A stretch of 62,899 bases of DNA, the filler included, from Sphacelaria rigidula (lineage: Eukaryota), in assembly GCA_964200075.2 (NCBI GenBank). It is 7 parts of 7 records of this genome, joined end to end, with 100 filler letters (N's around TTAATTAATTAA, not from the genome) between each part and the next. Parts side by side here need not be neighbours in the genome. Positions count along the whole stretch, not along the records: positions 54,002 to 62,899 come from CAXNAA020009803.1; 6 more parts are not named here. One strand, given 5' to 3'. Below are positions 5,621 through 62,899 of the stretch, one piece after another. Below the pieces are notes generated by a model, which was not told the DNA's origin, ran no database searches, and saw nothing but the letters and a program-made list of their open reading frames with translations. The translations under genes were made by a program, and so were the position numbers. Within the stretch, counting starts at the first letter, position 1. Every line of letters starts with the position of its first letter.

Positions 5621-6042
5621 AAGAGCCTGGATCCGTTTTTGAGGTTCAAGATTATAATGAGTTTCAACTCGGAAACAGTGCTTTCTCTGACCTGAAGTCA
5701 TGACCACTGAATTTCATATGGACGACCTCATTCATGCCCCTCGATCTCCTTGGAACTATTTTGGGGGGTTGCCCGTCTTCCGTGCCCCCAAGGTGTATAT
5801 GCAACAATTTTGGACTAAAAACGTCCCGTTTTTCGCCCCGATATGTAGGCGAAAAAGTGCTTTCGCATATACGATTTGGGGGTACGGAAGACGGGCAACT
5901 CCCCAGAATAGTTCCAAGGAAATCGGGGGGCATGAGGTCGTCAATATGAAATTCCTTGGTCATGACTTAAGGTCCGGGAAAGCACTGTCTTCGAGTTGAA
6001 ACTCATCAAAATGTTGAATCTTGACAACGGATCCAGGCTGTT
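5621..6042. mobile_element. Foldback MITE with long (~175 bp) terminal inverted arms
   Basis: Ends are AAGAGCCTGGATCC...GGATCCAGGCTGTT and the arms pair nearly to the centre. Related copies at 11050-11475 and 28942-29071. Confidence 0.85.
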
Positions 6043-6408
6043 CATTGGTGTGTGTCTGCATCTATTCTGCTGCCCTGTTTCCCTTGGGCCTTTTCCTTTT
6101 CTTTTCTTTCCGTCGTTGTATTGTTTTCCTTATTTGATTCGCTCTGTACGTTCCCCTTCTTTGCTTTTTTTCTTGTTTTTTCGGTCGGCCCTTTCTTTCT
6201 GTGCTTTGCTTGTGTTGACTTTTGTTTCATTCTTCTTGTTTTGTTACACGACTTTGCGACGTCGTTCTGTTCGATCCTTTTTTCATTCTTTCATTCCTTC
6301 TTTTTCTCGGAGCGTGTTTCAGTGTCGTTTTTCTTGGGGACGTCTATCATCAGACCACGGCTGGACCCCTGGGGGGTCAGATTAAGTGCGACAATCAGTC
6401 AATCAATG
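6043..6408 (+). mobile_element. Retroposon 3' end with (CAAT)n tail
   Basis: A pyrimidine-rich body is followed by GACGTCTATCAT...CTGGACCCCTGGGGGGTCAG...GACAATCAGTCAATCAAT. The same end occurs at ~46760-46915 (-) and ~49100-49305 (+). Confidence 0.65.
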
Positions 6409-6419
6409 TGTCATGAGCC

Positions 6420-8690
6420 TTTTGCAAGTCCAGAAAGTAACAGTACTTTGTAAACATAGCGTCTTTCCTGCCTTGAATAATCTTACCTAGTGTGTACACA
6501 TGATCTTCGCAACTACGGTTCGGTCTGAAACCTGCTCGTCCCTCTCGCTGATGCTTTCGTCATTTTCTAGCATATTCCCACTCCATCAAACAGAATCGTA
6601 TAAAACGCTTTCCCTACCGTGCTCAGTAGCGTCGTCCCTCTATGGTTCCGTGCCTTGTCTCTTTTTTTGAACATTTTGACTACTGCTCCTTCTCTCCACC
6701 TCTTGGGTGTGTACTCGTTTTCCCAGATCCAGTTATACACCATGACCATCATGGTAGTCATTCCTCCCCCTCAATGCTTCAGAAATTCATTCATTATTCT
6801 GTCTGCCCCTGCTGCCTTTCTGTTCTCAAGTTTAGCTACGCACTCCTTCACTCCATCTCTGGTAAAATGTCTCTGCAATCCTTTTTAGCCTCCATCCTCC
6901 CGTTTTGACGTCTCTACATCTGCTTCTGCCCACTCGTTGATCTCTTTTTCGAATTCCGTGTCAAGCTCCGTGACAGTTTTTGGTGTTTTGAGTTTACGGT
7001 AGTGCTCGACTGGCACTTCTCTCGTACCCTTGGAACTGTTGACCAGTTTACCGTTCTGTGCCCGGAGTATGGCTATCTCCTTGCCTGTCTATCCTGCCTT
7101 GTTTTCCATGATCCCTCCTATCCCTACCTACAGTTGTTTCATCCCGCCATCGAAATCTTCATTTTGTTTATTCCATACATCTTCCCACACTCCCGTCCTA
7201 TCCTTCTACGTCATATTATTTACTTCCTTCCAAGCTTTAGTATACTCGTCTCATTCTACCGTACTTTTGCTCGACACCCATCTCGCGTGGGCCTCTCTCC
7301 TTACTCTTGTAGCTTCTTGTGCTTTCGCATCCCACCATTTTACTGCTCTGTTGTATACGATCATCTTTCCTATGACTTTACTGGCTGTGTTTTTGACCAG
7401 CTGCTTCCATCCTTCTACAATCCTCGCTTCGACCCGATTTCTTTCCATTCCGGTATCAACCGTACCTACGCAATCCAACAGTCCAGAAAAATTCACTGCA
7501 TTTTTGGCCATCGCTTCTTGGAACCCTTCGTGTTTTTCTTCCATACCTCGTTTATCGATTCTCCATTTGTACAACTTCCTACCACGCCTATTTCTTTTGG
7601 CTCTCGTCTGTTGGCGTTCTGTCCATATTAGGCAATGATCTGTGGTTCCCACATCCTCCGCGCATACATATACTTCCATTTCTGTGCGATTTCTATGCTC
7701 TACCACTGCATAGTCAAGAACGGAGCGTTCTCTCTTTTTTCCTTTGCATTCCCTCGTCCATGTTCATTGCGCCCCTCGTTTCAGTACTACATCATTCAGC
7801 GTCTTCATCTCTCGATGCTCAAGGAACTTCAGCATTTCTACCCCATTCGAGTTCTTCTCATCTTGCCCGTACTGCCCAATGATGTCATCCGGTTATCTTG
7901 CTTTTTCTACCTTGTATTTAAATTTCCCACTCACAGTACTTCTCCTTGCCCTTTATATTCATATATATGTGCTGCTATCTCTCCAAACCTACGCTGAATA
8001 TCGTCCACCCCACTCGTCGGTCCTGGGGGCTTGCAGATGTTCCTTACGAAGAAGTCCTTCGCTCCCCGCTCTTGTCGAATTCCGTGTCATCCATCACTTC
8101 GTTAATGTTACACACGTATTCCTTGACTCTATTCCCCCCGCTCCCCTACTCTTGGACTTCCGTTCCTTCCGCTTCTTCCCTATACATGCTTACGCTTCAA
8201 CTTCTTATCCTATTTCCACCCCCTCCTTCTCCCATGACTCTTCGATTCATACTATATCTACGTCATGCCTCCGTACTCGTTCGACTATCTCTGTTTTTTT
8301 GCGCTCGTCTATGGCGAAGCCACACCCGTTTCACGATCCTATTCTCAACTTCCTGTCCGGATTATTAGCTGCTCTCTTGGTTTCTCCTATCCTGTTCCCG
8401 TGCCTTTTACTTCTACTTCACCTCACTTGATTGTTCTGCCCCTTCCCGGTTTGGTCTTTGTCTACTTGCTTCGGGCCGCTATTTCTCCTCCCCTTCCCCT
8501 TCCGGGCATTTACCTGTTTCTGCCTCTCTTTCCCTCCGTTTGCCCGTGCACTAGGTCTTAGGTTTGTTATTTCGTTAGCAGTACATACTCTCCATCCTTT
8601 ACTTCTAACGCCTGCCGACACCCTACGTGTCTCTATCCTTTAACACTCCTTGCTCGCGCTCTGTTTTATTGTGACTCGGAAGTGTTGACG
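6420..8690 (-). mobile_element. Degenerate LINE (APE endonuclease plus RT N-terminal region), 3'-truncated
   Basis: Minus-strand frames give an endonuclease-like start near 8300 (V-R-R-H-D-V-D-I-V...EESWEKEG), VGTTDHCLIW (SDH-like motif), and RT-start KRWREGAVVKMFKK...NHRGTTLLSTVGK. It has many stops and frameshifts and is homologous to 45070-47730. Confidence 0.85.
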
Positions 8691-8902: not shown

Positions 8903-9002
8903 NNNNNNNNNNNNNNNNNNNNNNNNNNNNNNNNNNNNNNNNNNNNTTAATTAATTAANNNNNNNNNNNNNNNNNNNNNNNNNNNNNNNNNNNNNNNNNN
9001 NN
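8903..9002. other. Artificial contig linker N44-TTAATTAATTAA-N44
   Basis: 100-bp spacer with a six-frame-stop core. Confidence 0.98.
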
Positions 9003-17903: not shown

Positions 17904-18003
17904 NNNNNNNNNNNNNNNNNNNNNNNNNNNNNNNNNNNNNNNNNNNNTTAATTAATTAANNNNNNNNNNNNNNNNNNNNNNNNNNNNNNNNNNNNNNNNN
18001 NNN
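17904..18003. other. Artificial contig linker
   Basis: N44-TTAATTAATTAA-N44. Confidence 0.98.
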
Positions 18004-26903: not shown

Positions 26904-27003
26904 NNNNNNNNNNNNNNNNNNNNNNNNNNNNNNNNNNNNNNNNNNNNTTAATTAATTAANNNNNNNNNNNNNNNNNNNNNNNNNNNNNNNNNNNNNNNNN
27001 NNN
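26904..27003. other. Artificial contig linker
   Basis: N44-TTAATTAATTAA-N44. Confidence 0.98.
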
Positions 27004-35903: not shown

Positions 35904-36003
35904 NNNNNNNNNNNNNNNNNNNNNNNNNNNNNNNNNNNNNNNNNNNNTTAATTAATTAANNNNNNNNNNNNNNNNNNNNNNNNNNNNNNNNNNNNNNNNN
36001 NNN
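35904..36003. other. Artificial contig linker
   Basis: N44-TTAATTAATTAA-N44. Confidence 0.98.
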
Positions 36004-44902: not shown

Positions 44903-45002
44903 NNNNNNNNNNNNNNNNNNNNNNNNNNNNNNNNNNNNNNNNNNNNTTAATTAATTAANNNNNNNNNNNNNNNNNNNNNNNNNNNNNNNNNNNNNNNNNN
45001 NN
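44903..45002. other. Artificial contig linker
   Basis: N44-TTAATTAATTAA-N44. Confidence 0.98.
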
Positions 45003-48182: not shown

Positions 48183-50058
48183 CTGCGAACATCGTCATCA
48201 GGTGGAAATAACATCCATAGTATATATATTTTTGAAGGATAACCATAACAACAATAGTGAGAGAAACGTCCATGAAATAACTTCAGTGAGATCAGAAATA
48301 TTCGTCATTTCACGAGGAAAGCAGTAAGGAAACAAAACTGCGTTTTGAGAGCTAGTTCATCTACGCCGGGAATAACGACATGGTCATAAGTAGATCGTGT
48401 TCCGGACACATCCATTCATCGCAACACTTGTGTTGTGCTGACACGACGGAGGAAGGGTGACGGGTTGATGACCTGTATCTTCGGACTCGTAACGGGAAGG
48501 GGGTACAACTTGAACAACCACAAGATAGTGGTTTATAGACTTTTCTGTCCCTATCGGTTGTTGATTTCGACCTTGATCGGTGGTCTTGCGGTGTTCCCTG
48601 GTTTGTGATTTTGTACTCGTTCTACTTCACTGTGCCCTTGGGCTTCAGCACATCTGCAGCTTCCTTCTTCTCTGTGTCTCCTTCTTCCCCCATGTCTCCC
48701 TCTTTTTTTCTATCTCTCCCTCTACGTGCTCTTTCCTCCCGGTGTATGCAAGCCGCAGTTTGGTGGTTGGCTTCCGCGTTTCGTGGATTACAGCCCCATA
48801 CCCCAAATAGTAAGGTCGTAGTAGTTGAGCCGCAGTGTATTCCCACAGCTTTTCGTTTTTTCGATTGGGAATGGATGATGACTATGGGCTTCTGCGCAAG
48901 ACCATTTCCATCGAAGCCATGTCCACCGAAGCAGAGGCTGGCCATTATTTGTTTTTCTTGTCCTTGCCCTTGTTTTCGTTATTTTTTTGTTTAGTTTCTC
49001 GATTTGTCTTTGCTTCATGTTTTCTTCTTTTTCTCTCTTTCTATAGAAATAAATTGAAATTGGAAGCGCCCTGGGCACAGGGCAATCCATGTTTCATGTA
49101 ATCTTCTTTTCCTATTTTTCTATCGTTTCCTTCTTCTTAGTGCACCGTGTTTTATCTGCTCTAGCGTTCTATCGTTCTGTTTTCTCCCCTCTCTTTTCTT
49201 CATCTAGTGTCCCCGTTTTTGCTTCACCTGGGGTACGTCTATCATGTCACCACGGCTGGGATCCCTGAGGGGTCAGTTGATGTTAGACAATCAATCCAAA
49301 TCAAATCAGCGGCGAGTTAAGGAAAAAATTGTTTTCTAGGAACGCGGTCCGAAGATATGAATTTTGAACCACTCGGCCGATAATGACCAGTCGGTGACTC
49401 AAACGAAAGCTGTTGACCACAGGATCGCATAAGTGACCCGTTTCATGGCGTCTGATGGCGTCTGATGCGTCGATCAATACATGCGGCATACATGCACGTT
49501 GAGCAATTAATAAAAATAAGCGCTCGCGATTCATCGACATACTCGCGAAAAAAGTCGGAGTAGGCGACCTGACAAATCCCGCAAATTAGTGGGTCAGGTC
49601 AGCACGGGTAGCGTACCGGCTTGGAGATTTGAGCCTGCGGTTGCGTTCGAGACACTGAAGGTCTGCCTCGTCATACTCCCATGCCCTACAGCAGCGTGAG
49701 CGCGAAGCAGGGCCCCCTCATTGCCAAAGCAAGATATATTCGATCCCTTACTGTTCCCCGCAAAGACCTTATTTATACCGGTTTAGGGGTGCTTGATTGG
49801 CAGAGTTTTCGACATCCTTGCAGAGACGAGTAGCCCAAACATAAGATATATGTACAGTATCTGGCTATAGAAACAGTGTTTCAAGGGTAACAAATGCGGC
49901 ACGCTCATCAGGGACCGAAAATTCCCGTCTCTACACAATGATGTACGTCGGTTGGCGCGCGCGCAGGCGCGCGCGGAGGGGGCGCGATATAAGTACGACC
50001 ACAGAAGGGTATGCAGGATCAAACGATTTGCGATCAAAGGTAAATCAATGAGACTCGC

Positions 50059-50325
50059 CAGCACGTCCGGGTGCGACCCGAAGCCAACCCCCACTCGGCA
50101 GTGCTGGTCGATAGCCCTGAATATCTCCCACCCCCATTCCCGGTACACGGGATCCCTCGTCAATTGGTGGAGAATGAAAAAGCTCTCCAGCGTTTCCGGT
50201 CTCAGCACGTAAAAGTGCGCTCTGTGCTGCGCCTGCATCTTGCCCTCCGAGTGAAACTCTACCGTTTCGGGGGGCAGCCCTGTGGGCATCCGGAGGTACA
50301 TCTGGTAGCAGGTGTAGGCCAGCGC
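50059..50325 (-). CDS. GH47 alpha-1,2-mannosidase, penultimate exon
   Basis: TACAG|ALAYTCYQMY...TGLPPE...YVLRPETLESFFIL...DPVYREWGWEIF...HPDVL; 267 bp, phase 0. Confidence 0.95.
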
Positions 50326-52264
50326 CTGTATGCACGCCGATGATGGTGTGGACAGCCATGTTATTTTCGAAGAGCAGCATGTATACATTTACCGATCACC
50401 GGTACGTGGCACATCACGGTCCCCTGAATACAATAGTACGCCCGTGGGATACACTGATCGATTGTTTAGGCATCATACCAGCAGTTTTCAGTCATGTTTG
50501 CGCTTACGCAAGGTTATCACCCTCTCACATAGATATAGATACCACCCCCGAGTGCTGACGTTTCGAGCCCCAAATCCCCATCATCTGGGGGTCGTATCCG
50601 CCGTCGTCTGCGGCATACTGTTATTATTGACTCGAGGTTCATTTTTGCACTTAGGTTAAGGAGAGAGATCCACACTCTCATTGTGGTACTTGACTGCACT
50701 ATTGCAGTTTTTCGTTTGTCTGTTGTCTACGTGTCGTTGGTGGACAATCGTTTGATGAGGGTATTCTATCTGGATCGGACGCCGTGCTCTTCGCGTTATT
50801 TCGATGTGGCTACATTCTTCGCGTTATCCGCTGGAAATTTCAGAGACTGACTGATTGACTGACATCTGGCGTTTCGGGACTCACGAACAGGAAGAACTTG
50901 AACGAGGCAGTGATGGGCTGTTCTTTTGCAGCCATCTTCCACTCAAAGCCGTTGTTGAGGTATGCAAGAAAAACCCGGTAAAACGCCACGTGACGTCTTG
51001 AAGCGTCCGTCCTACCAATTAAGGCGCCTTTTGAGCGAAACGCGAATTGTTCCTGTTTTTTTGCAATGTACAAAATTATTCCGACTACATGGAAACGGAG
51101 AGCGTGATTCTCGCGAGCTTGCCACGATGAATCCAAAAACACACGCAAATGGTACGAAGCTAAACTCCTGCTAGTCGTATGATATCTAACTGTTCCTTCT
51201 GTCGTAGCAATCATCGAGTTATAATGTGGAATATGGTACTATTCAAAAACGAGGTGTCAAGACCCAACGAATGTCCGTTCTTAGACCGCTTTCCCTCCCA
51301 GGAGGGCCAACTTGAAAGGGATTCCGGGCCCAAAAGCACACGGCATCTTCCAATCAGTAACCAGCTTCGTTCAGTGTTTCAGGCTGAGTTTGGACGCCCA
51401 GGAATATACTCTCAGAGTTATCAACCCTCTCCGCTCCTCGTATTTTGCAGAAGCAAGGGCTACGAACAGTAACTTGAAGCTGAGTAGGAGATGTAAACCT
51501 TGGTTCAAAACGCCGCACGCGGGTACGGGTATAGCCAGACACAACTAGACATTCGGTGAATTACGGAGCAATCTTGTTACGAACAAAAAAAGGGAAGGAA
51601 AAAAAGAGATGTCAAGGAGAGGAATGAATGAGTGCACTAGTGACTACCCTTGCTCTCCAAGTAGATGTTTTCGTTTTGCAAGTAGATGTCGTCGTTAATG
51701 TTCTCAAGCTACCCACAAAACATTCCAAAGCGTAGGCGTTTGATGCCTGAGCACAAATACCGCAACTCGTGCGTAAAATCTTTTCTATGCCCTGCTTGCG
51801 CCACTATACCTTATTCACTTATTCACCTATTTCTTGCTTTGATGCCATGCAACCTATCGAGGACATCGACAGGCTTCCCCCCCGCCTCCCCCCCGTCCTT
51901 CACAGGGCAAGAGGTGCCGAAGATAATCACGAGAGCGGTGAAACAAAGCAGCATGAAAAATCGCACTCTCGAAGTGGAGGGGCGTACTCATTTGTTGTGT
52001 GCCTTAGACGTTTGACCATCGACCACGCATCCCTTCCGAGACGGAGCACAGTTGGAGGGGGAGGGGGAGGAGTTGGTGAAGTCACCTTGGCTTCTGTGAG
52101 ACGACTGAAGCCCACCCCCATAGCCTTACAGCCTCACAGGATGGAGGGTGCGGACGAGAGTAGCGAAGCGAACCAGCACTTCCCCTCACCCTTCTTCCCC
52201 GCCCCTCGCGAGTAAGCAAGCACAAGCCACATGGCACAATACACTACAACACACTACAACATAC

Positions 52265-52417
52265 TTTTCCGGTCTTGAGATCCCTCGCTGCTCGGACGGG
52301 ATCATCCGCAGTCGCGGCGCCCAGGGCCAGATTTCCCGCCACGAAGCACGCGAGGTGATCCATGCGATGTTGGTGCGATTTTCCGTTCCACTCGCTCAGG
52401 TACGTCAGGCCGCCCGT
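52265..52417 (-). CDS. GH47 alpha-1,2-mannosidase, third-last exon
   Basis: TCCAG|TGGLTYLSEWNGKSHQHRMDHLACFVAGNLALGA...KTGK|GTATGT, with the MDHLACF motif. It joins the next exon in frame. Confidence 0.92.
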
Positions 52418-52499
52418 CTGGAAGATATCGCCAATTTGACCGCCCGAAGGAGAGAGGTCGATGGCGATCAGTGTGGGAGAGGGTACAGTACAGGCGAGG

Positions 52500-53901
52500 A
52501 GGGAGAGAGGGGGGGGGGGGCGTACTCAATTGTTGCTTGCCTTAGTCGTTTGACCATTGACCACGGATTCCTTTCGGGAGGGATCACAGTTCCCACTCCC
52601 GCCAGAGGCAGCTACAAAATTCGGACGCTTATTACGCTTCTTGCATACATTTCACGAGAAGATTTTTCACATGTTGTTACCATCCTGCTTCGATCCTATG
52701 GTCACCATCTATCTCCTAGTATGGCCACCATTTTCTCCCTTTTGTCCAATAAATCAAACGATTTCATGCCACCTTCGTTCGCGTCCCGCATTTCACCCTC
52801 TAACACGTCCCGTTCCCCCTTGTTTAGTTCAATTTTGCCACTGTATGAGTTCTACTCGCTATTGCTTTGCCACAGGGGCATTTCTGTGTATTTACATCCC
52901 CGTCCTATCGACTATGGGTATATCTCTTCCTTTTTTCTGGCGGGTACAGGTCCCTCACCCGAAATCGCAGTTTCATTTGTTTTGCGGAGCCCATTGCGCC
53001 GTGCAGATATATTTTCATCTCTATCCTCTTTCTCAACCCCTCGTATATCTTCAGGTGTTCTTCCTCGTCTACTTCGCGTCTTAACGTTTCTTTTCCCGTT
53101 ACTTCTATCATGTCTCTTACTTTTGTCGTGTACCCGCCGCATTCACCTGCGGGCATTGTCTCATCATGGTTTCCTCCTATCTCCTTCCACACTTTCTCGA
53201 CTACTCTATCCCACCTTATTCCAGTCTGCCCTTTCTCCTTTTCGTCGGTTTCTTCCATACAGTCCTATCAACTATGGCTGGCAATCTTTTCCTTGGCATG
53301 CTCCACACTCTATATTGTCACTTCAACTTTCTCATTTCTTTGTTGGTTCGTGTTGGTTCCAAGTAGGTGCATTTCCAATTCTGCTGTCACAAATGCAGTA
53401 CTTGTCGTTATCGAGCATCCGAGTACTTTCTGAGCTGCTATCATTTGTTCTGTTTCCAGCTGCTGCACCAACTTCGCGTTCCCCTGCTGTACTTCTCCCG
53501 CATATTTTACCTTTGGTCTGATCACATTGACAGAATACATCTCTTGATCCTAGTATCTAGGTGCGAATCTCGTAGGATCACGTCCATCTTGCCTATATGT
53601 GCCTCACCCTTTCCTATTAGGTTTTCCATGTGTGCATCCCAAGAACACTTATTTTTCATCATATATCTACGCGAAGGTATGTGCACTGGTCTACCATCGG
53701 CATTCCTTTTTTCTCAACTTCCACTTGAACTCTATCGGGTTTTCCTTACCTTCGTTACACTCAATTTCCGCGCATTTGTTTACGTTCGCTGTCACTCTTC
53801 ATTTCGTAGTGTATTCCAGCACCATCTCTTTTTTCGTTTCTTCAGTATTTCTGTTGTTTCTGGTATCCCTACGAAATCATCCGCGAACATGGAGGGGGGG
53901 G
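52500..53901 (-). mobile_element. Degenerate LINE 3' part, in the GH47 intron; same family as 45070-47730
   Basis: VIRPKVKYAGEV...QLETEQMIAAQKVLGCS and WDRVVEKVWK match the plus-strand copy, and the 3' tail is the same. Confidence 0.85.
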
Positions 53902-54001
53902 NNNNNNNNNNNNNNNNNNNNNNNNNNNNNNNNNNNNNNNNNNNNTTAATTAATTAANNNNNNNNNNNNNNNNNNNNNNNNNNNNNNNNNNNNNNNNNNN
54001 N
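53902..54001. other. Artificial contig linker
   Basis: N44-TTAATTAATTAA-N44. Confidence 0.98.
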
Positions 54002-54084
54002 GCTTTGTAGTGATGCGAGGTCAATGGTCTGATGACTATGGCATGCATGATCATGAGTACACCCCCACCCCCTCCCAATGTGTG

Positions 54085-54345
54085 CATATATATCAGACAG
54101 AAGGGAGGAGAAGATGGCTATACTAGGAGATAGATGATGGCCAGAAATAGGGAAACAGGACGGGGATAGGATACGTGAATGTTTTTGTGTAGTGTATGGA
54201 AGAAACGTAATGAGCGCCGGAATGTCGAAGGTGTCTCTATTAGAGGTAGGACCAGTGCTCCGTCTCGAAAGGGATGCGTGGTCAATGGACAAACGACCAA
54301 ATCAAGCAACAAATGACAACGCCCCCCCCCCCCCCGCCCCCCCCC
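54085..54345 (+). mobile_element. 5'-truncated LINE 3' end
   Basis: GCTATACTAGGAGATAG...CGTCTCGAAAGGGATGCGTGGTCAATGG...AAGCAACAAATGA + poly-C. Confidence 0.85.
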
Positions 54346-54449
54346 TCGTCGTGGGATGACTCGACCGCTGACAACAAACGCGAGCACACACCAACACCGT
54401 TCTAGGTTCGTATAAATAACGGCGTCGGTGTAATAAATGGTGCCATCCA

Positions 54450-57400
54450 TCACGTTTCGGACCCCGGGGGATACGCACTGGACACTCCTAGCTCAAACTT
54501 CACGTTCGGATCCTTCCTTGCCTCTTCAAAAGCCACATCATCAAGTTCGCCCAGATGTCCAGGTACCACTATCGGCGAACTGCAGGTCCGCCCCCTACTT
54601 TCACCATCACTGCTGACGAAGCCACGACCACCACGCGCGCTTGTCCAACGACTCGAAGAGTCAGCAAACTCACGACACTCGCTCATCTCATCGCTACTGT
54701 GAGTGGGAGAAGGGACTGCCACCTCTACCTTCATTCCTGCTCCTGCTTTTGTCCCAAAAGTCACCTTTTCACCTGTCGTCGAAAGTGGGCATCCCGAGAG
54801 CAACGGCGTTCTTACACCGGCATTGCGGCGCCCACCAACAAAGTCGTTTGCAACAGGGCCCGAGAATGCCGCGCGCGTGCGTTTCGTTCCTCGTGAATCA
54901 GCAACGCTTTCTCCACTGGTCTCCGTCGGGCCACGGCCGGGGGCGCCCTCCCCAGTGTTGAGCTTCGCGGTATCAGATATCGCAGCTGTGTTGCGTGCAC
55001 TAGCGTGTTCTCGGCAATACGTCGCCTCATCAACGGTGTGCTCCTTGTGGATAGCCCATTTACAGCACCCCACTTCCACTTCACCGCATCGTTTGCTCCC
55101 CATATTCACCATTACCGCCCTGGGATGCTCAGAGCCGAACTCTGCCTTTGCGCTGCCCGCAACACCGTACGAACGCCTGGTGGAGCACCCCTCGTTGTTG
55201 TAGTTCGTGTTCACCACACCCACAATTTCCATCCTGGCATGCTTGGAGCAGACGTCCGCCTTGTTGCTTCCCACTGAGGCATATGACGCCTGAGTGGAGC
55301 AGCCCTCATAGCCGCACATCTCGTTTACAACACTCACCATTCCCGCCCTGGTATGCTCGAGGCAGAACTTCCCCTTCTTGCTTCCAGCTACTCCGTAAGA
55401 CGCCTTAGTAGAGCAGCCTTTGCAGCCGCCCTTCTTGTTTTTCACGTCCACCATCCCCTCAATGGCATGCTTGGAGCAGAACTCCGCCTTCTTGCTTCCC
55501 ACTACACCAAAAGAGGGACACTTTGAGCAGCCCTCATGGCCGCACATACCAACTCGGACATTCACCATTCCCGCCATGGCATGCTTGGAGCAAAACTCCA
55601 CCTTCTTGCTTCCAGCTACTCCATAAGACGCCTGAGTCGAGCAGCCCTCATGGCCGCACATACCAACTCGGACATTCACCATGTCCGCCATGGCATGCTT
55701 GAAGCAGAACTCTGCCTTCTTGCTTCCCGCTACACCAAAAGAGGGACACTTTGAGCAGCCCTCATGGCCGCACACACCAACTCGGACATTCACCATTCCC
55801 GCAATGGCATGCTTGGAGCAGAACTCCGCCTTCTTGCTTCCCGCTACACCGCGAGACGCCAGAATCAAGCAGCCCTCGTAGCCGCACATACCACCTCGGA
55901 CATGCACCATCCCCGCCATGGCGTGCTTGGAACAAAACTCCGCTTTCTTGCTTCCGATAATACCAAAAGACGCCTGAATGAAGCAGCCCTTGAAGCCGCA
56001 CTTCTTGCTCACCAAATTCACCATCCCCCCCATGGCGTGCTTGGAGCAGAACTCCGCTTTCTTGCTTCCCACTACACCGCAAGACGCCTGAGTCGAGCAG
56101 CCCTCGTAGCCGCACCTCTTGTTAACAACATTCACCATCCCCGCCCTGGCATGCTTGGAGCAGAACTCCGCCTTCTTGCTTCCCATTACACCGAGAGACG
56201 CCTGAATCGAGCAGCCCTCGTAGCCACACATACTAACTCGGACATTCACCATCCCCGTCATGGCATGCTTGGAGCAAAACTCCGCTCTCTTGCTTCCCGC
56301 TACACCAAAAGACGCCTGAATGACGCAGCCCTCGAAGCCGCACGGATTAACTCGGACATTCACCATTCCTGTTATGGCATGCTTGGAGCAGAACTCCGCC
56401 TTCTTGCTCCCCGCTACACCGAAAGACGGATGTTTCGAGCAGCCCTCGTAGCCACACACACTAACTCGGACATTCACCATCCCCGCCATGGCATGCTTGG
56501 AGCAAACCTCCGGTCTCTTGCTTCCCACTACACCAAAAGACGCCTGAAGGGAGCAGCCCTCGAAGCCGCACTTCTTGTTCCCAAGATTCACCATTCCTGT
56601 CCTGGCATGCTCGAAGCAGAATTCCGCCTTCTTGCTGCTCACCAAACCATATGACGCCCGAGTCGAGCAGCCCTCGTTGCAGCACTTTATCCTTACCGCA
56701 TTCACCGTTCCCGCCATGGCATGCTTGGAGCAGAACTCCGCCTTCTTGTTTCCCATTACACTGAAAGAGGGACACTTTGAGCAGCCCTCGTAACCGCACT
56801 TCTTGCTTCTCACGTCTACCATCCCGGCCCTGGCATGCTCACGGCAAAACTCCGCTTTCTTGCTCCCCGCTACACCAAAAGACGGACGTTTCGAGCAGCC
56901 CTCGTAGCCGCACATACCAAGTCGGACATTCACCATCCCCGCCAGGGCATGCTTGGAACAAAACTCCGCTTTCTTACTTCCGATAATACCAAAAGACGCC
57001 TGAATGAAGCAACCCTCGAAGCCGCACTTCTTGCTCACCAAATTCACCATCCCCCCCATGGCGTGCTTGGAGCAGAACTCCGCTTTCTTGCTTCCCACTA
57101 CACCGCAAGACGCCTGAGTCGAGCAGCCCTCGTAGCCGCACCTCTTGTTAACAACATTCACCATCCCCGCCCTGGCATGCTTGGAGCAGAACTCCGCCTT
57201 CTTGCTTCCCATTACACCGAGAGACGCCTGAATCGAGCAGCCCTCGTAGCCACACATACTAACTCGGACATTCACCATCCCCGTCATGGCATGCTTGGAG
57301 CAAAACTCCGCTCTCTTGCTTCCCGCTACACCAAAAGACGCCTGAGTGGAGCAGCCCTCGTAGACGCACCTCTTGTTCCCAAGATTCACCATTCCTGTCC

Positions 57401-57743
57401 TGGCATGCTTGAAGCAGAACTCCGCCTTCTTGCTGCCCACCAAACCATAAGACGCCTGAAGGGAGCAGCCCTCGTAGCCGCATCTCTTTTTCACAACATT
57501 CACCATCCCTGCCGTGGCATGCTTGGAGCAGAACTCCGCCTTCTTGCTTCCGTCTACACCATGAGACGGCTTCGTGAAGCAACCCTCGTAGCAGCATTTT
57601 ATCCTTACCACATCCATGGCTCCCACCATGGCACGCTTGGAGCAGAACTCCGCTCCCTTACTTTCCATCACACCAAACGACGGATACTTCGGGCGGCCCT
57701 CGTCGTCACACCCCTTGTTCGCAACATTCAACATTCCCGCCAT
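54450..57743 (-). CDS. EsV-1-7 cysteine-rich repeat protein, 1097 aa: 23 tandem 38-aa C-x4-C-x16-C-x2-H repeats, one divergent repeat, and a low-complexity tail
   Basis: Uninterrupted ORF with a 114-bp period and consensus CGYEGCSxQASFGVAGSKKAEFCSKHAMAGMVNVxxKx, which is typical of the EsV-1-7 family of brown algae and their viruses. Confidence 0.92.
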   Translation of the reverse strand: MAGMLNVANKGCDDEGRPKYPSFGVMESKGAEFCSKRAMVGAMDVVRIKCCYEGCFTKPSHGVDGSKKAEFCSKHATAGMVNVVKKRCGYEGCSLQASYGLVGSKKAEFCFKHARTGMVNLGNKRCVYEGCSTQASFGVAGSKRAEFCSKHAMTGMVNVRVSMCGYEGCSIQASLGVMGSKKAEFCSKHARAGMVNVVNKRCGYEGCSTQASCGVVGSKKAEFCSKHAMGGMVNLVSKKCGFEGCFIQASFGIIGSKKAEFCSKHALAGMVNVRLGMCGYEGCSKRPSFGVAGSKKAEFCREHARAGMVDVRSKKCGYEGCSKCPSFSVMGNKKAEFCSKHAMAGTVNAVRIKCCNEGCSTRASYGLVSSKKAEFCFEHARTGMVNLGNKKCGFEGCSLQASFGVVGSKRPEVCSKHAMAGMVNVRVSVCGYEGCSKHPSFGVAGSKKAEFCSKHAITGMVNVRVNPCGFEGCVIQASFGVAGSKRAEFCSKHAMTGMVNVRVSMCGYEGCSIQASLGVMGSKKAEFCSKHARAGMVNVVNKRCGYEGCSTQASCGVVGSKKAEFCSKHAMGGMVNLVSKKCGFKGCFIQASFGIIGSKKAEFCSKHAMAGMVHVRGGMCGYEGCLILASRGVAGSKKAEFCSKHAIAGMVNVRVGVCGHEGCSKCPSFGVAGSKKAEFCFKHAMADMVNVRVGMCGHEGCSTQASYGVAGSKKVEFCSKHAMAGMVNVRVGMCGHEGCSKCPSFGVVGSKKAEFCSKHAIEGMVDVKNKKGGCKGCSTKASYGVAGSKKGKFCLEHTRAGMVSVVNEMCGYEGCSTQASYASVGSNKADVCSKHARMEIVGVVNTNYNNEGCSTRRSYGVAGSAKAEFGSEHPRAVMVNMGSKRCGEVEVGCCKWAIHKEHTVDEATYCREHASARNTAAISDTAKLNTGEGAPGRGPTETSGESVADSRGTKRTRAAFSGPVANDFVGGRRNAGVRTPLLSGCPLSTTGEKVTFGTKAGAGMKVEVAVPSPTHSSDEMSECREFADSSSRWTSARGGRGFVSSDGESRGRTCSSPIVVPGHLGELDDVAFEEARKDPNVKFELGVSSAYPPGSET

Positions 57744-58273
57744 GGTACGCTCAAAGCAGAACTCCGCCTTCTATCTTCAAGCTAGAGTGCTCACACGGCA
57801 TTCTTGCTTTCCATTACACCAAAAGAAAGATGCTCTGAGCAGCCCTTGTGTCCACACTTCTTGTTCGCAACGTTTACTATCCCCGCCCTGGCGTGCTCAG
57901 AGCAGAACTCCGCCTTCTTGCTTCCAGCTACTCTTTCAGATGGTCTCTTGGAGCAGCTCTCGTCAACGCACTTGTTCTTCACATTCACCTCTCTCGCCGT
58001 GGCATGTTAGGAGCAGAAGTCCGCCGTGTAGCCCTGTGCACCGTTATGTAAGGGCTCGGACCAGCCCGTGGTTATGCAACTTTCCTCTTCGACGCCGGCT
58101 GTCAGGTCCTTCGCGTCGTGCTTCTTCGAAGACTCCCTGTTCACGGTAGCACAAATGCCAAAAAGGCGGAACGTCTGCTGTGAATCATGCGTGAAAGCGA
58201 GTTGGCACGCTTTCCAGAATAATCTGCACTCTTTTTGGGATACCCTCTCCCGAGAAGAAGACGTTGCCTGCAT
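57744..58273 (-). pseudogene. Disrupted 5' part of the EsV-1-7 gene (N-terminus plus about 3 more repeats)
   Basis: ATG at 58273. An in-frame TAA at 58007-58009 replaces K in FCS[K]HA, and a 32-bp insertion at ~57770-57801 lies inside SKKAEFC. Confidence 0.75.
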
Positions 58274-59354
58274 TTAACTCAGACGACGCTACATGTAAGC
58301 TGACCCTAACAATTGCAGCACCACTTGCAAGAGAGTTCAAGCGAACGGGACATCCTGTACACTATTGCAGTTGGGACCGAAGGCGAATGAAGCGCTACCG
58401 CAGTACAAAAGCAGGGTAATTATGCAGCGGAAAACATGCCGAGGCACAATACCACCACAAAAACCTGCCCGAACTTGAACATGGACGAGACGGTGGATTC
58501 GAATCGAAAGTTATCACAACTACAACATCTGCTGTCATCGTTTCGACGCACACTCCGTCTACACAATGATGTATGATGGATATGTTTCAGCTATCCTAGC
58601 GTATACTAAAAGCTATCCTGGACACACACTATACGTTCTGTTGGGGGTATCAGCAGAGTACGGTAGATCGAAGGCCCGGATCACCGCACCATGATTGGCG
58701 CCTTGACTGTACTGGTAAAGTAGGGCTACTTTTAGTTGTCTAGCGGATCGGAAATATGACAAATAAGGCAAGTAATTTTGACTGCACTATGGTGGGATTC
58801 CCACTGTCAAGAATTAATACAGAGGAAGTCTATCGAAGAACGGGAAAGGATCACTTCGGCCATTTTCAGAAAAGAAATTGTTATTCTCGATGGGATTAAT
58901 GAATGATCAAACTTACCTGCACAGAGCACGTCCTTTTCACAGTCACCCATGAGGGAGAGTATATTAACACACCACGACGCGCTCGCCGGCATGACATGGA
59001 AGTAATTTCAACTGTCGCTTTGAGGAGGGTGCATGCAACACCAAACCAAAGTCCCCCAACGCAAGTAATGTGCGACGTGATAGCATGTGCGATGTGATAG
59101 CATGTGCGATGTGAGTAGATGGAAAACGTCACAGTTCAATCATGAGAAATGTAAGACACTTGCACATAAAATCCGCATCTAAGTTGCGTCTAGTGTTCAC
59201 CACCGACGTTGCATAAAGTGACTGTACTGTTGAGCACACCCACTATGCATTACCACGCCGTGCTGGTCACAAGGAGCAACACATGCCGCCTGTTCGGCAA
59301 GTGCGAGACCGAAGGCCGCGTATCAATCACCTCGACGCATTGCAGTATTGATGG

Positions 59355-60928
59355 CAGGGTTGCATATCGGACCGAGAATAAAGTTCGATAGATATTTTTA
59401 GAATATCGAACCACAACCGTCGATACCGATATTTTTGTCGATATTCCGCAAAAGACACGATACGTATCGGGTATCGATATTCGATACGATACGGCTGTTT
59501 TGGTATGGCCGCAGTGTACAAGACCGAGCAGTACACTGGCACACTGGCACCTTCACTCACTGTTGTAGATCGCTTGAAATACCACATCCCCTGGAAGGAT
59601 TTTCAAAGCTCACCTATTCCTCACCAGAAGCTGAACTGGGCGGCGTTGCAACCATCTCTTCGAGATAAAGTAATCGAGCTTTCAAAATCGCTCCTGAGGG
59701 TGTGGTATCTCAAGCAACCCACGGTAGTCTCCAGTGTACAGCAGTGCACACATGATGTACAGCAGTGCACACATGATGTACAGCAGCGGGTAGTGTGCAA
59801 ATTGACGTCATAGCAGCGGCGACATGCTGTGATACAGCTGTCTTGCGAGTATCTTTCGTCGTCGTGCAAGAGGTGGTTGATCACAGCGGGCCGGGTGTGG
59901 TATTGGTTATAATGTTTTCATTTCTACCGTCACTATTCCGTGTGTTTCGATCGGATGAGCGCATGCTTCGACTCTGCACATTCATTACAGAAGGAAAGGG
60001 TGTCAAACCTCGAACATGCACAAACTCCTATGCGAGCTCTTTTTTCCAACGTTTTTCACTACCAGTAACAGGAAACGTCAACATGCGTCAATTTTTAATT
60101 TTTGGATTCCAAAAAATCCATGTTTGTATGTCACCAACCAAGGAGAACAACGACTAGGCTTGCAACAATTAGAATGCCCCGACTAATGGGTTAGACTTTT
60201 GGAGCCTACACAGGGATTAAACGCCTCCGGAGGGGTGCGCGGCCCTCCAGAGGACATTTTTTGGTTTCCTCCAGAGGGATTACAGGCCTCCGGAGGCTGA
60301 TTTTTGCCCCCGGAGGACTGCGCATACCCCCGAATTCCTTCGGGGGGGTGCCCATCCCTCCGGGTTGGTAGAGTTTGGTTTCCTCCAGAGGGATTGAAGG
60401 CCTCCGGAGGCTTGTTTCCCCCCTGTAGGTCCGCGCATCCCTCTGAAGGCATTTTGAGGTGTAGCCAAATGGCCGCGTGTGTGAAGGAAAGGCGAAGTGA
60501 CAGTATCATCTCCTCATACTCCGAAGGACAGCTATTTTTACTGTCATCTGAAGCTTTGCATTGATCGTGACCTCATATCTACTCCGCCACGCCACCCGTA
60601 TGTTGCCGTTGGTAAACACCCCCGCTGAATCATAGAGCTAAACCCACGAAGCAACAGCGGTTACTCTGTCGCCTCCTATCCTACGAATATGTACTGCATT
60701 CATTTGTACACCGTGCAACCGCTCTACAGCTATACTAGCAAGTGCAACCTGTGAACACTGCGGAAATTGAGCGAATGTGACGAAAAATAAACAAAAATAT
60801 CGAGCATATCGATATTCGATATTGATACATATCACATATATCGGTTTTCTACGCTCCGAAACTGATATGGTATATCACCGATATTTATCGAAATCGTATC
60901 GATTATCGATATCCGATGTGCAACCCTG
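59355..60928. mobile_element. Non-autonomous hAT-type DNA transposon, 1574 bp
   Basis: TIRs CAGGGTTGCATATCGGA / TCCGATGTGCAACCCTG, a perfect 8-bp TSD ATTGATGG (59347-59354 and 60929-60936), and CGATA-rich subterminal repeats at both ends. Confidence 0.92.
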
Positions 60929-62354
60929 ATTGATGGTCGGACGGGCGGCATCGCATTGGTCGCCTTTTCTGTTGACGCGTGCGCTCCCTTAATTTTACAA
61001 AGCAAGCGCGAGAAACAGACATGCTTGTTCCTGCCGCGTGAACAATCAACACTTTCGACAGATGAAAAATAACCCCCTGCTCCAGGTATCTGATATGAAG
61101 CACGTCACGTTTCCCTGGAACAAACGATCCGCCAACCTTTGGAAATAATGCCCGAGACTCGCAGGAAACCACACAGCATTGAAAAAGTTGCTGCAAACTC
61201 ACAGAATACCTGCAAACGTCAGAGAACGTCCTCAACTGGTATGTATCTGAGGATGTCCATATCTGTCTAGATTTTGTTCCGCTTCTTTGCTAGGAATGGA
61301 AAACGGGTATCCCGTGTGCTGGACAGCGATTCATCCGGCGGTTAGAAGCCAGTGATTTGTTTCCTGGTGAAGGAGGCGGTCAGTGTATCTGAAGAGAAAC
61401 ATATCGATATCTGCCGAATCTCATTGAGAGCACGCGCATACGTCGATCTCTAAAGAGAAACAGTGATCAAATATCTTCAGCTTTCTGTGGCAAGTGTGTA
61501 CTTACTTATATTCAAGAAGTACAGCCTGATGCCCGCCGGTCAGTTGTACAACAACAGAGAAATATTGTGGGAGTTGTGTGACCGGTTTGACAGAGAAAAC
61601 GGGGTCACCTAGCGTGTGCTGATAATGGCATGTTTTGGGATCTTCTTATCTTCGTCAAGCATACATAAATGAACATAAACACACAGATATCTCATAACGT
61701 TCAAAAAACGGTAATATGAACTGACAGATAGTCTGACAATACGTCTGACGAAGTCACTCTCAACTCGCGGAAATCTGAAAACGTTCCAAAGAGTTGTGCC
61801 GAAAGAAGAACATGCCTGCATTTGTTTGAAGGAGCCGTCTCTGGGTTCAACAGTTGTTCCACGTGTGCTGGGCCCAACCCTTCTAGGAAGACAGGTGTTG
61901 TGCCCATATCGGCCAAATATTTGTATCAGAGATAAGTCCTTCACGTGGGTCGCTTGCACTTGTTACGAACAAACAGATAGAAACTCACCGCGTGTCACAC
62001 CCGTATGTTTCGAAGTGGACACGTGTTCCGTGTACGCTCGGCAGATGCGTTCTGAAGTGAACCGATATTCCATGTATCGGTCATGTAAAAAACTAGTGCA
62101 TTCGTACGCATTCCAATTCGGGCATCCACGGCATAGTCTGTGCAGACATTCAAACAGTAGTATAACCATGTGCTGCAACTCACTGTCTGTACGGCGCGGT
62201 GCCTTTTCATATAAGCGCGTGCGAACACCGCAGTAGGGGTAGGGGGAGAGGGGGGGGATGCCCAGATTGTAGAGGATGCCGCAGTGCACGACACACGTCA
62301 CAAAAGTGGCGGATGCTCATAGTGAGGAACACATTTTCCCCCCCGCCTCGCCCC

Positions 62355-62575
62355 GGTGGTGTAATGGTATGACTGTTACCGCTATGATGGAGAGTATGTG
62401 AATTCGATTCCTGCCAGACCCCTGGTTATCATGTTCGAAGCATCTGACTTACACCGCAGAAAGCGTGAGTACGTGTGTGAACAAAAAGCAATTGATATGC
62501 GTTTGTTCGACGAGAGTTAACGCCATGCGGGAGTGCTTCACCAATTCACGACACTCAAAATGCAAGGCGTGTACC
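62355..62575 (+). mobile_element. tRNA-derived SINE, family D, truncated by repeat B
   Basis: TGGTGTAATGG A-box and AATTCGATTCC B-box-like motif; the body is homologous to 42440-42740. Confidence 0.65.
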
Positions 62576-62899
62576 GGGGGTTATATTCATGATCATGCAT
62601 GCCATAGTAATAAAATGATTGCCGGGACGGAGCACGCCGGGTTTTTGCCGGACCAGGCGCGCAGTCAATCACCAAGCGCTAAGTGCCGTGGTGTGTTCGG
62701 CTAGTCGCATGAAGGGTGAGCTGCATCCTGCTGAGATTATTCCTCCCGAGGCCTAGTGATTATCTTGCATTTCGATGACAGCCTACAATGAGTTGCTTCA
62801 GTTTCTGGTATCGCCCCTTCCAGAGACAGCCACGACTTACACATTGCCTCATGGGTGTCTCACCATTTAAACACTACGTGGTACGATCATCCCCATTGT

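What the first reader, a model, noticed from the sequence alone, without database searches (positions are those of the whole stretch)
55100..57710. EsV-1-7 array resembles a modular, re-programmable recognition array (fixed scaffold, localised variable residues)
Seen: across 23 exact-length 38-aa repeats the scaffold (CGxEGC, G-S-K-K-A-E-F-C-x-x-H-A, GMVN) is strongly conserved. Variation clusters at the two residues after C-S/F (TQ, IQ, LQ, KR, KC, KH, TR, TK, IL), the next residue (mostly P after Kx, A after xQ), position 12 (F/Y/L/C/H/R), and the linker (VVKKR, LGNKR, VRVSM, LVSKK, VRLGM, VRSKK). Established: EsV-1-7 repeats are putative zinc-binding motifs expanded in brown algae (e.g. Ectocarpus IMM) and shared with phaeoviruses; to my knowledge their ligand is not defined. 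Inference: the architecture parallels TALE, PPR and C2H2-ZF arrays, so each repeat may read one nucleotide or a short motif through a code. That would be an uncharacterised programmable nucleic-acid-binding system, for example for TE or virus surveillance.
Basis: partly seen in the sequence, partly recalled or inferred. Interest (0 to 1): 0.8.

Follow-up and report, generated by a model that had tools for sequence, protein, structure and literature searches.

The report
Very long EsV-1-7 zinc-knuckle array
A brown-alga-type gene carries 23 tandem copies of a known small cysteine-rich, probably zinc-binding motif; it is an unusually long member of a known family, and its variation looks like relaxed constraint, not a TALE-like reading code.

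Summary
Window 55089..57710 (- strand) encodes 23 indel-free 38-aa EsV-1-7 repeats (Pfam PF19114, 24 stretches, E=0) inside a 1097-aa ORF (54450..57743). Variation is uneven, but it covers about 11 of 38 positions: 3, 8, 9, 12, 15, 28, 29 and 35-38.

Variable sites give omega about 0.7-1.0 with no nonsynonymous excess (p 0.63-0.96); scaffold sites give about 0.3-0.4. Positions 8-10 are locked into two motif classes, K-x-P and [TIL]-Q-A. The linker is the most variable part. AlphaFold predicts small strand-rich knuckles with no recognition helix and no fixed inter-repeat geometry (pLDDT 83, pTM 0.38).

The array grows by unequal recombination: a 328-nt tract is duplicated exactly. Three further repeats upstream carry a stop and a 32-nt frameshifting insert. 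The only public model found covers the last 296 aa.

Nucleic-acid binding is still plausible. The array has net charge +67, shares its ligand spacing with SBP zinc finger 1, and has giant-virus relatives that fuse such arrays to a DUF559-like endonuclease.

Verdict: a new, very long member of a known family of unknown function. A programmable code is not supported.

The parts
54450..57743 (-). Longest open frame, 1097 aa (P0001). It runs from an ATG that lies inside a repeat unit to a TGA.
55089..57710 (-). 23 tandem EsV-1-7 repeats of exactly 114 nt / 38 aa. The register is C1-x4-C6-x16-C23-x2-H26. 20 of 23 repeats have all four ligands.
54975..55088 (-). 24th, degenerate repeat (aa 886-923). 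Three Sphacelaria rigidula paralogues conserve it as the array's last unit.
54450..54974 (-). Non-repeat C-terminal tail (aa 924-1097; aa 886-1097 have pI 5.8). The aligned last repeat, degenerate repeat and tail are 51-55% identical to P0064, P0053 and P0054.
54873..54887 (-). Basic cluster T-K-R-T-R within the conserved R-G-T-K-R-[KT]-R-A-A motif. Reading it as a nuclear-localisation signal is an inference from a recalled pattern.
57018..57345 (-). 328-nt tract (repeat 4 codon 8, third base, to repeat 7 codon 3) that is 100% identical to 55992..56319. It is the upstream copy of a recent duplication or conversion.
55992..56319 (-). Second copy of the 328-nt identical tract (repeats 13-16), 1026 nt or 9 repeats away from the first.
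57711..57856 (-). Repeat unit directly upstream of repeat 1. A 32-nt insertion (57773..57804) splits it, shifts the frame and holds a TGA (57791..57793). The ORF's ATG (57741..57743) lies in this unit's second half.
57857..57970 (-). Complete repeat unit upstream, in a different frame from the long ORF (HMM positions 1-38, E 6.2e-18).
57971..58084 (-). Degenerate leading repeat unit with an in-frame TAA at 58007..58009. The outer boundary is approximate.
58010..58273 (-). 88-codon open frame that leads into the decayed repeats and may be a former N-terminus. It has no Pfam match and no relatives were found.
54450..55340 (-). Extent of the only public protein model found for this locus (P0052, 296 aa, identical to aa 802-1097). 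It leaves out 21 of the 23 repeats.

Best explanation
[quoted passage not shown] Its closest named relatives are Sphacelaria rigidula proteins. Its array is exceptionally long: 23 in-frame units plus about 3 decayed ones.

Shown:
- Each unit carries a C-x4-C-x16-C-x2-H ligand set.
- Each unit is predicted with good local confidence as a tiny strand-rich knuckle.
- The units have no confidently fixed geometry relative to each other.
- The array changes length by in-register unequal recombination or gene conversion.
- Scaffold codons are under purifying selection, while about 11 positions and the linker evolve at roughly the neutral rate.

Inferred: the protein is nuclear and binds nucleic acid, DNA more likely than RNA. 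It does so through many near-equivalent basic modules. The conserved face G-S-K-K-A-E-F-C-S-K-H does most of the work, and the number of repeats supplies avidity. At most there is coarse per-repeat preference, from two repeat classes (K-x-P and [TIL]-Q-A), not a one-repeat-one-letter code.

The host protein looks like a nuclease-free counterpart of giant-virus proteins in which the same kind of array precedes a DUF559/Vsr-like endonuclease domain.
For: Family membership: Pfam E=0 with 24 stretches. The nearest Atlas clusters are all PF19114.

Relatives: 6193 relatives at E<=0.001. Paralogues from S. rigidula share the tail.

Array length: 20 strict CCCH units here against at most 11 in the other 191 proteins held.

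Fold: mean pLDDT 83.3, pTM 0.38, only 3-residue helices at C-x-x-H plus short strands. A second model of relative P0016 shows the same pattern.

Recombination: repeats 5/14 and 6/15 are 100% identical, and the identical tract is 328 nt.

Selection:
- Tree-based omega is 0.48 overall, 0.31-0.34 for the scaffold and 0.72-0.90 for the 11 top-entropy sites.
- Ten non-overlapping pairs give 0.39 against 0.74.
- Synonymous differences in codons 16-27 are about as frequent as elsewhere, so that block is held by selection on the protein.

Charge: +67 net and pI 9.29. No repeat is net negative.

DNA link:
- A strict RPD..ExDExQH..NPD motif occurs in 96 of 192 held proteins, and lies after the array in 92 of them.
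- The P0016 model matches BFVD entries named 'Endonuclease' (Faunusvirus E 1.4e-60; cedratvirus; pithoviruses) and a DUF559 protein (E 1.2e-7, TM 0.75 over 126 columns).
- The top PDB rows are mostly PD-(D/E)xK nucleases, though none is significant.
- SBP finger 1 has the same spacing, and the Pfam SBP match is E 4.2e-4.
- A transposase-EsV-1-7 fusion is reported in PMC12477816 (passage).

Nuclear cue: a conserved R-G-T-K-R-[KT]-R motif in the tail.
Against: - No binding of any ligand, and no zinc binding, has been shown for any family member in the passages I read.
- The SBP match is below Pfam's cut-off and occurs in only 5 of 28 scanned sequences.
- Profiles of the repeat find no solved structure (0 hits at E<=10). 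Foldseek gives 0 of 29 PDB hits at E<=0.001 and does not list SBP.
- The window protein itself lacks the nuclease domain, so the fusion argument is by association.
- The 'Endonuclease' names are database labels, not assays.
- The gene may not be intact. Two lesions lie in the upstream repeats, and the public model covers only 296 aa.
- The selection tests use 21 short paralogous units that recombine, so power is low and the tree is approximate.
Confidence: 0.5

Rival explanations
1. Each repeat reads one nucleotide or a short motif through residues 8-9 (plus 10, 12 and the linker), giving a programmable TALE/PPR/C2H2-like array.
For: - The scaffold is fixed and variation is uneven.
- Exact 38-aa spacing is kept over 23 units, while relatives vary from 36 to 41.
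- In 93 other arrays, position 9 is the most variable within an array (2.06 bits), and positions 9-12 have the highest within/total entropy ratios (0.57-0.58).
- The array is basic.
- The ligand spacing is that of SBP finger 1.
- Viral relatives carry nuclease fusions.
Against: - There is no nonsynonymous excess at the proposed sites: omega 0.70-0.85, p=0.95; pN/pS 0.72, p=0.90.
- Even the post hoc best set only reaches 0.98 (p=0.63).
- Positions 8-10 are coupled: K8-P10 in 6 of 6 and Q9-A10 in 12 of 12. They form two classes that largely follow repeat ancestry on the tree.
- About 11 of 38 positions vary, and the linker varies most.
- The model has no recognition helix and pTM is 0.38.
- Paralogue P0053 has TKP in 4 of 5 strict repeats.
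- In other arrays, variation is spread over most non-ligand positions.
Confidence: 0.08
2. The array is a protein-binding or other non-nucleic-acid scaffold. Many small zinc modules would each offer the same conserved surface to a partner, as PHD, B-box, LIM or RanBP2-type finger arrays do.
For: - The weak Foldseek rows for the repeat model include PHD and PZP fingers, B-boxes and hevein-type lectins (none significant).
- The most conserved surface is identical from repeat to repeat, which suits multivalent binding of one repeated ligand.
- IMM is described only as a developmental regulator of unknown biochemical function (passages).
Against: - The strong net positive charge points towards nucleic acid.
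- So do the fusions of such arrays to an endonuclease-like domain and to a transposase.
- No partner is known.
Confidence: 0.2
3. The locus is a decaying or non-functional expansion: a tandem-repeat gene that has lost its 5' end and persists as a long open frame only because the damage is recent.
For: - An in-frame TAA (58007..58009) and a 32-nt frameshifting insert with a TGA (57773..57804) lie in the three upstream units.
- The ORF's ATG lies inside a repeat.
- Edge repeats 1, 21 and 23 have lost ligands.
- The only public model is 296 aa.
- The putative leader has no relatives.
Against: - 1097 codons remain open.
- 20 of 23 units keep all four ligands.
- Scaffold omega is 0.31-0.39.
- The tail is conserved at 51-55% identity with three paralogues.
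- Degenerate edge repeats are usual in tandem arrays (established knowledge).
- Gene predictors often skip masked tandem repeats (inference), which could explain the short model.
Confidence: 0.15

Closest known systems
EsV-1-7 domain family of brown algae (Pfam PF19114), including Ectocarpus IMMEDIATE UPRIGHT (IMM)
   Same: The cysteine-rich repeat is the same, with the same ligand set and roughly 38-aa period. [quoted passage not shown]
   Different: This array has 23-26 units. IMM has five (passage), and the other 191 proteins held have at most 11 strict units. The tail is a subfamily-specific sequence shared with S. rigidula paralogues. I did not fetch IMM itself, so there was no direct alignment.
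Giant-virus (Nucleocytoviricota) proteins with an EsV-1-7 array followed by a DUF559/Vsr-like endonuclease domain (for example P0016; BFVD A0A3G4ZWE6 'Endonuclease', Faunusvirus)
   Same: The repeat family is the same and the arrays are in phase (A2/A3). These proteins score among the best relatives.
   Different: The window protein has no such domain in any frame. Its array is 2-3 times longer, and it ends in a tail with a basic cluster.
SBP (SQUAMOSA promoter-binding) domain, N-terminal zinc finger
   Same: The ligand spacing CX4CX16CX2H is identical (SBP pattern from a bioRxiv 10.1101/2021.08.22.457055 passage). There is a sub-threshold Pfam match over profile positions 1-49.
   Different: The score is below the gathering cut-off. 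The second SBP finger (CX2CX3HX11C) is absent. No sequence or fold match to solved structures was found. SBP is a single domain, not a tandem array.
C2H2 zinc-finger arrays, TALE repeats and PPR repeats (code-bearing arrays)
   Same: All are tandem short modules of fixed length with some positions more variable than others.
   Different: There is no recognition helix or helical hairpin. The linker is variable rather than conserved. The variable sites show no diversifying selection. How these families behave is recalled knowledge, not tested here.
Tandem CCHC zinc-knuckle proteins such as CNBP (recalled, not tested)
   Same: Many small basic zinc knuckles arranged like beads on a string could bind nucleic acid by avidity with low per-module specificity. 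This is the mechanism I favour.
   Different: The ligand spacing and the family are different. No homology was detected or claimed.

Membership tests
EsV-1-7 cysteine-rich repeat family (PF19114) | Match to the Pfam model above its gathering score | tested here: met
   1046.9 bits against a cut-off of 25, 24 stretches, E=0
EsV-1-7 cysteine-rich repeat family (PF19114) | C-x4-C-x16-C-x2-H ligand pattern in each unit | tested here: met
   20 of 23 units are complete; units 1, 21 and 23 each lack one or two ligands. C1, C6, C23 and H26 are invariant in 40 of 40 ungapped family repeats.
EsV-1-7 cysteine-rich repeat family (PF19114) | Tandem units of about 38 aa | tested here: met
   22 of 22 spacings here are 38 aa. 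Relatives range from 36 to 41, with 38 the most common.
EsV-1-7 cysteine-rich repeat family (PF19114) | Zinc binding | not testable with these tools
   Inferred only from the Cys/His pattern. The passages I read call the family a putative zinc finger.
Code-bearing repeat arrays (TALE / PPR / C2H2-ZF type) | A few specificity positions with excess nonsynonymous change in an otherwise constant repeat | tested here: not met
   omega 0.70-0.98 with p 0.63-0.96; pN/pS 0.72-0.74 with p 0.90-0.91; about 11 of 38 positions are variable
Code-bearing repeat arrays (TALE / PPR / C2H2-ZF type) | Helical reading element and regular inter-repeat packing | tested here: not met
   The AlphaFold model has no helix of 4 or more residues, and pTM is 0.38 despite pLDDT 83. 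This is a prediction only. No coordinates were returned and no nucleic-acid co-fold is available.
Code-bearing repeat arrays (TALE / PPR / C2H2-ZF type) | Free combination of specificity residues from repeat to repeat | tested here: not met
   K8-P10 in 6 of 6 (Fisher p 7e-5) and Q9-A10 in 12 of 12 (p 3e-4). 12 of 23 units are [TIL]QA and 6 of 23 are KxP. Shared ancestry inflates these p-values.
Code-bearing repeat arrays (TALE / PPR / C2H2-ZF type) | Sequence-specific nucleic-acid binding that changes when repeats are swapped | not testable with these tools
   Needs SELEX, DAP-seq or RNA Bind-n-Seq.
SBP domain (PF03110) | Pfam gathering score | tested here: not met
   21 bits against 27, E 4.2e-4. 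5 of 28 scanned sequences match at E<=0.1.
SBP domain (PF03110) | First finger CX4CX16CX2[HC] | tested here: met
   The spacing is identical. The SBP pattern comes from a paper passage.
SBP domain (PF03110) | Second finger CX2CX3HX11C | tested here: not met
   H26 is followed 12 residues later by the next unit's C-x4-C, not by C-x2-C-x3-H.
EsV-1-7 array plus DUF559-like endonuclease (giant-virus type) | C-terminal RPD..ExDExQH..NPD domain | tested here: not met
   A profile of the domain gets only scores of 0.8 bits or less in the six-frame translation of the window. The tail shows no similarity to P0002 beyond repeat fragments.

The most novel reading that the evidence does not exclude
EsV-1-7 units are a new class of modular DNA-reading zinc knuckle, distantly related to SBP finger 1. 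The loop-strand segment at positions 8-12 sets a per-unit preference. Giant viruses use arrays of them to aim a DUF559-type endonuclease, making a natural zinc-finger-nuclease architecture. Brown algae have domesticated nuclease-free arrays, and this 23-26-unit protein reads an unusually long or reiterated DNA target.
Probability: 0.1. Interest if true: 0.8.

Novelty: new member of a known kind. Interest (0 to 1): 0.38.

Why it matters
EsV-1-7 proteins make up one of the largest gene-family expansions in brown algae, and the family includes a developmental regulator (IMM). Yet every passage I read leaves their biochemical function open.

This locus adds three things:
- An array about twice as long as any other I retrieved, mostly absent from the public protein model. 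Family censuses built from annotated proteomes may therefore under-count long arrays.
- A sequence-level test showing that the variable positions behave as relaxed sites, not diversifying ones. This steers experiments away from a simple code.
- A family-level clue: half of the best-scoring relatives fuse the array to an endonuclease-like domain. This makes DNA the first ligand to test.

If DNA binding is confirmed, the family becomes a candidate lineage-specific class of chromatin or transcription factors in brown algae.

Tried and rejected
- **Solved relatives by sequence.** A 7-repeat segment gave only HDT1 at E 0.19. A 22-protein family profile gave nothing meaningful. A 51-column repeat profile gave 0 hits at E<=10.
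- **Fold search, repeat model against PDB.** 0 of 29 rows reached E<=0.001.
- **Fold search, P0016 model against PDB.** 0 of at least 500 rows reached E<=0.001. Only the kind of proteins near the top is suggestive.
- **First alignment for folding (A1, sliding six-repeat windows).** MAFFT slid the rows out of register (342 columns), so I dropped it and used A2.
- **Apparent all-nonsynonymous differences between young copies 4, 11 and 13.** The 5 differences between repeats 4 and 13 all lie in codons 2-8, at the edge of the duplicated tract. I read them as a recombination breakpoint, not as selection.
- **The 26-32-nt interruption upstream as an intron.** A GT..AG reading of 26 nt exists, but it would leave a 40-aa unit and is far shorter than the brown-algal introns I recall. 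I treated it as an insertion.
- **Putative N-terminal leader.** No Pfam family and no relatives among longer proteins (the tool calls this weak evidence).
- **Neighbouring genes.** Nothing else on the contig matches Pfam. The GH47 exon is on another contig.
- **Macaisne et al. 2017 (the IMM paper).** It is not held, so I know it only through citing passages and recall.
- **Not run.** The prokaryote-only genome-contig scan was judged irrelevant. Complex prediction was not used because I make no protein-protein claim. I did not open the bioRxiv supplements, including Table S17 of the Phaeoexplorer preprint, which lists EsV-1-7 proteins per species. They could bear on the claim about array length.


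Full report
**What is there**

On the minus strand of the window's last segment there is a 1097-codon open frame, 54450..57743. Tandem Repeats Finder reports a 114-nt period with 22.3 copies, 76% matches and no indels. Pfam places 24 stretches of PF19114 (EsV-1-7 cysteine-rich motif) on the protein, with E=0 and 1046.9 bits against a cut-off of 25.

In register, 23 units of exactly 38 aa fill aa 12-885, which is window 55089..57710. A 24th, degenerate unit (54975..55088) and a 174-aa non-repeat tail follow.

**Corrections to the observation**

Eleven positions exceed 1.6 bits: 36, 37, 38, 9, 12, 3, 15, 8, 29, 28 and 35.
- Two units are exact DNA copies of two others: repeat 5 equals 14, and 6 equals 15. 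They lie inside a 328-nt tract (57018..57345) that is identical to 55992..56319. So there are 21 independent units, and the array is being reshaped by in-register recombination.
- Only 20 of 23 units keep all four ligands. The edge units 1, 21 and 23 are damaged.
- A profile of the repeats finds three more units upstream of the ATG. One is complete (57857..57970). One is split by a 32-nt frameshifting insertion that contains a TGA (57773..57804). A leading degenerate one has an in-frame TAA (58007..58009). The ORF's ATG lies inside a repeat.
- The window is seven contigs of about 8.9 kb joined by N44-TTAATTAATTAA-N44 spacers. True context is therefore only 54002..62899, and nothing else there matches Pfam.

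**Relatives**

An exhaustive HMMER search finds 6193 relatives at E<=0.001 and 909 at E<=1e-30. The only identical public protein is a 296-aa model equal to aa 802-1097 (P0052), so 21 of the 23 units are missing from it.

The closest named proteins are three Sphacelaria rigidula products (P0053, P0054 and P0064). They share the last degenerate unit and the tail at 51-55% identity, including an R-G-T-K-R-[KT]-R-A-A basic cluster. All three models start at the Met of a repeat, which suggests they are truncated too.

Counting strict C-x4-C-x16-C-x2-H units, this protein has 20. The other 191 proteins held have at most 11. The held set is the best 150 plus the 50, less overlaps.

**Test of the code hypothesis**

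Before the selection counts I dropped the duplicate units 14 and 15.

| Site set | Tree-based omega, 21 units | Binomial p for N excess | pN/pS, 10 non-overlapping pairs | p |
|---|---|---|---|---|
| All codons | 0.48 | n/a | 0.51 | 1.000 |
| 27 low-entropy codons (scaffold) | 0.31-0.34 | ~1.0 | 0.39 | 1.000 |
| 11 top-entropy codons | 0.72-0.90 | 0.96 | 0.74 | 0.91 |
| Post hoc best set (8, 9, 15, 35-38) | 0.98 | 0.63 | not run | n/a |

- Pairwise Nei-Gojobori values average pS 0.41 and pN 0.22.
- The tree method was FastTree plus Fitch counting.
- The pair test left out units 4, 14 and 15.

Power is limited: the units are short and they recombine.

Other evidence points the same way:

- Positions 8-10 are not free. 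K8 goes with P10 in 6 of 6 units and Q9 with A10 in 12 of 12. This gives two classes, [TIL]QA in 12 units and KxP in 6, and they largely follow the repeat tree.
- K-x-P is also the commoner state in the family (K8 22/40, P10 27/40, which used only the 40 ungapped repeats of 313).
- In 93 other arrays with at least 6 strict units, within-array variation is spread over most non-ligand positions. Position 9 is highest at 2.06 bits. The within/total ratio is only slightly raised at positions 9-12 (0.57-0.58, against 0.28-0.55 elsewhere).
- Paralogue P0053 has TKP in 4 of 5 strict units.

**Structure**

AlphaFold2 on repeats 7-12, with a 28-row alignment, gives mean pLDDT 83.3 but pTM 0.38. It shows short strands at positions 12-14, 22 and 31-33, a 3-residue helical turn at C-x-x-H, and no helix of 4 or more residues. 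I read this as well-defined mini-domains with no confident mutual arrangement.

Foldseek finds no significant PDB match (0 of 29 at E<=0.001). Sequence and profile searches of the PDB also find none. No coordinates were returned, so the question of whether the variable residues line one face could not be tested.

**What the array probably binds**

The array carries a net charge of +67 (pI 9.29) and no unit is net negative. The block G16-A27, with K18, K19 and K25, is conserved at the protein level while its synonymous sites vary as much as elsewhere. The conserved basic face is therefore what selection holds.

The ligand spacing equals SBP finger 1 (CX4CX16CX2H; passage). Pfam gives a sub-threshold SBP match (E 4.2e-4, 21 bits against 27; 5 of 28 sequences at E<=0.1). 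This is a lead, not membership.

The stronger clue comes from relatives:

- 96 of 192 held proteins carry a strict RPD..ExDExQH..NPD motif, and in 92 of them it lies after the array.
- The AlphaFold model of one such protein (P0016; pLDDT 77) shows an alpha-beta-beta-alpha-beta-alpha-beta-beta C-terminal domain.
- That model matches BFVD entries labelled 'Endonuclease' (Faunusvirus E 1.4e-60; cedratvirus; several pithoviruses) and a DUF559 protein (E 1.2e-7, TM 0.75). It also matches EsV-1-7 itself (E 5e-22).
- PDB rows for the same model are non-significant but are dominated by PD-(D/E)xK nucleases.
- A Tc1/mariner transposase with an N-terminal EsV-1-7 domain is reported in Ectocarpus (PMC12477816, passage).

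The window protein lacks the nuclease domain in all frames.

**Literature**

The term 'EsV-1-7' occurs in 11 held papers, of which 9 were listed. None of the listed papers has it in the title or abstract. The passages I read describe:

- a large brown-algal expansion, with 2018 proteins identified in total and up to 335 per species;
- a possible novel zinc finger;
- a viral affinity;
- IMM as a developmental regulator of unknown biochemical function.

I found no statement of a ligand or of a recognition code in these passages or in the searches. The original IMM paper was not held, and I did not open the supplements.

**Conclusion**

This is a new and unusually long member of a known family. 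The most likely mechanism is multivalent, low-specificity nucleic-acid (probably DNA) binding in the nucleus by many near-equivalent zinc knuckles, with array length set by unequal recombination. This mechanism is inferred, not shown. The programmable-code reading is not excluded, but it fails every sequence-level test available here. The integrity of the gene's 5' end is an open question.

Noticed in passing
window 8903-9002, 17904-18003, 26904-27003, 35904-36003, 44903-45002, 53902-54001: The window is seven segments of 8898-8902 nt joined by N44-TTAATTAATTAA-N44 spacers. The contig length recorded for the window's own protein (8898) equals the last segment. Features in different segments are therefore not shown to be neighbours.
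   Followed up: yes
window 54450-55340 (-): The only identical public protein (P0052, 296 aa) starts at aa 802 of the ORF and omits 21 of the 23 repeats. Three S. rigidula paralogue models also begin at the Met inside a repeat ('MVNV...'). Long arrays may be systematically truncated in annotation.
   Followed up: partly
proteins P0004-P0046 and others (relatives, not in the window): Half of the best-scoring relatives (96 of 192 held) are EsV-1-7 arrays followed by a conserved RPD..ExDExQH..CExxRM..IRxNPDxY domain. Its model matches giant-virus 'Endonuclease' and DUF559 entries. This is a zinc-knuckle-array-plus-nuclease architecture.
   Followed up: partly
window 57773-57804 and 58007-58009 (-): A 32-nt insertion (with a TGA) and an in-frame TAA interrupt the three repeat units upstream of the ORF's ATG. 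The 5' end is either decayed or wrongly delimited.
   Followed up: partly
window 55764-56654 (+) and 56835-57785 (+): Antisense open frames of 296 and 316 codons run across the array. They are most likely by-products of the stop-poor repeat, not genes.
   Followed up: no
window 49786-50388 (-): An open frame matches Glyco_hydro_47 profile positions 308-407 (E 2.5e-24). It is probably one exon of an ordinary eukaryotic mannosidase gene, and it lies on a different contig from the array.
   Followed up: no
window 54022-54066 and 62577-62621: A 45-nt inverted repeat, 82% complementary, lies close to both ends of the 8.9-kb contig. Its core is itself palindromic, so it may simply be two copies of a short element. 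I did not examine a transposon-boundary reading.
   Followed up: no
window 60197-60417: Three copies of a 44-nt unit at spacings of 63 and 114 nt lie upstream of the gene, the best pair 91% identical. Short tandem repeats lie at 59068-59114 (17 nt) and 59735-59786 (21 nt).
   Followed up: no
window 6001-8430 and 52124-53521 (+): These regions are strongly strand-skewed and low in complexity (GC skew -0.30 and AT skew -0.39 at 6001-8000). They hold long open frames with no Pfam match and lie on other contigs.
   Followed up: no
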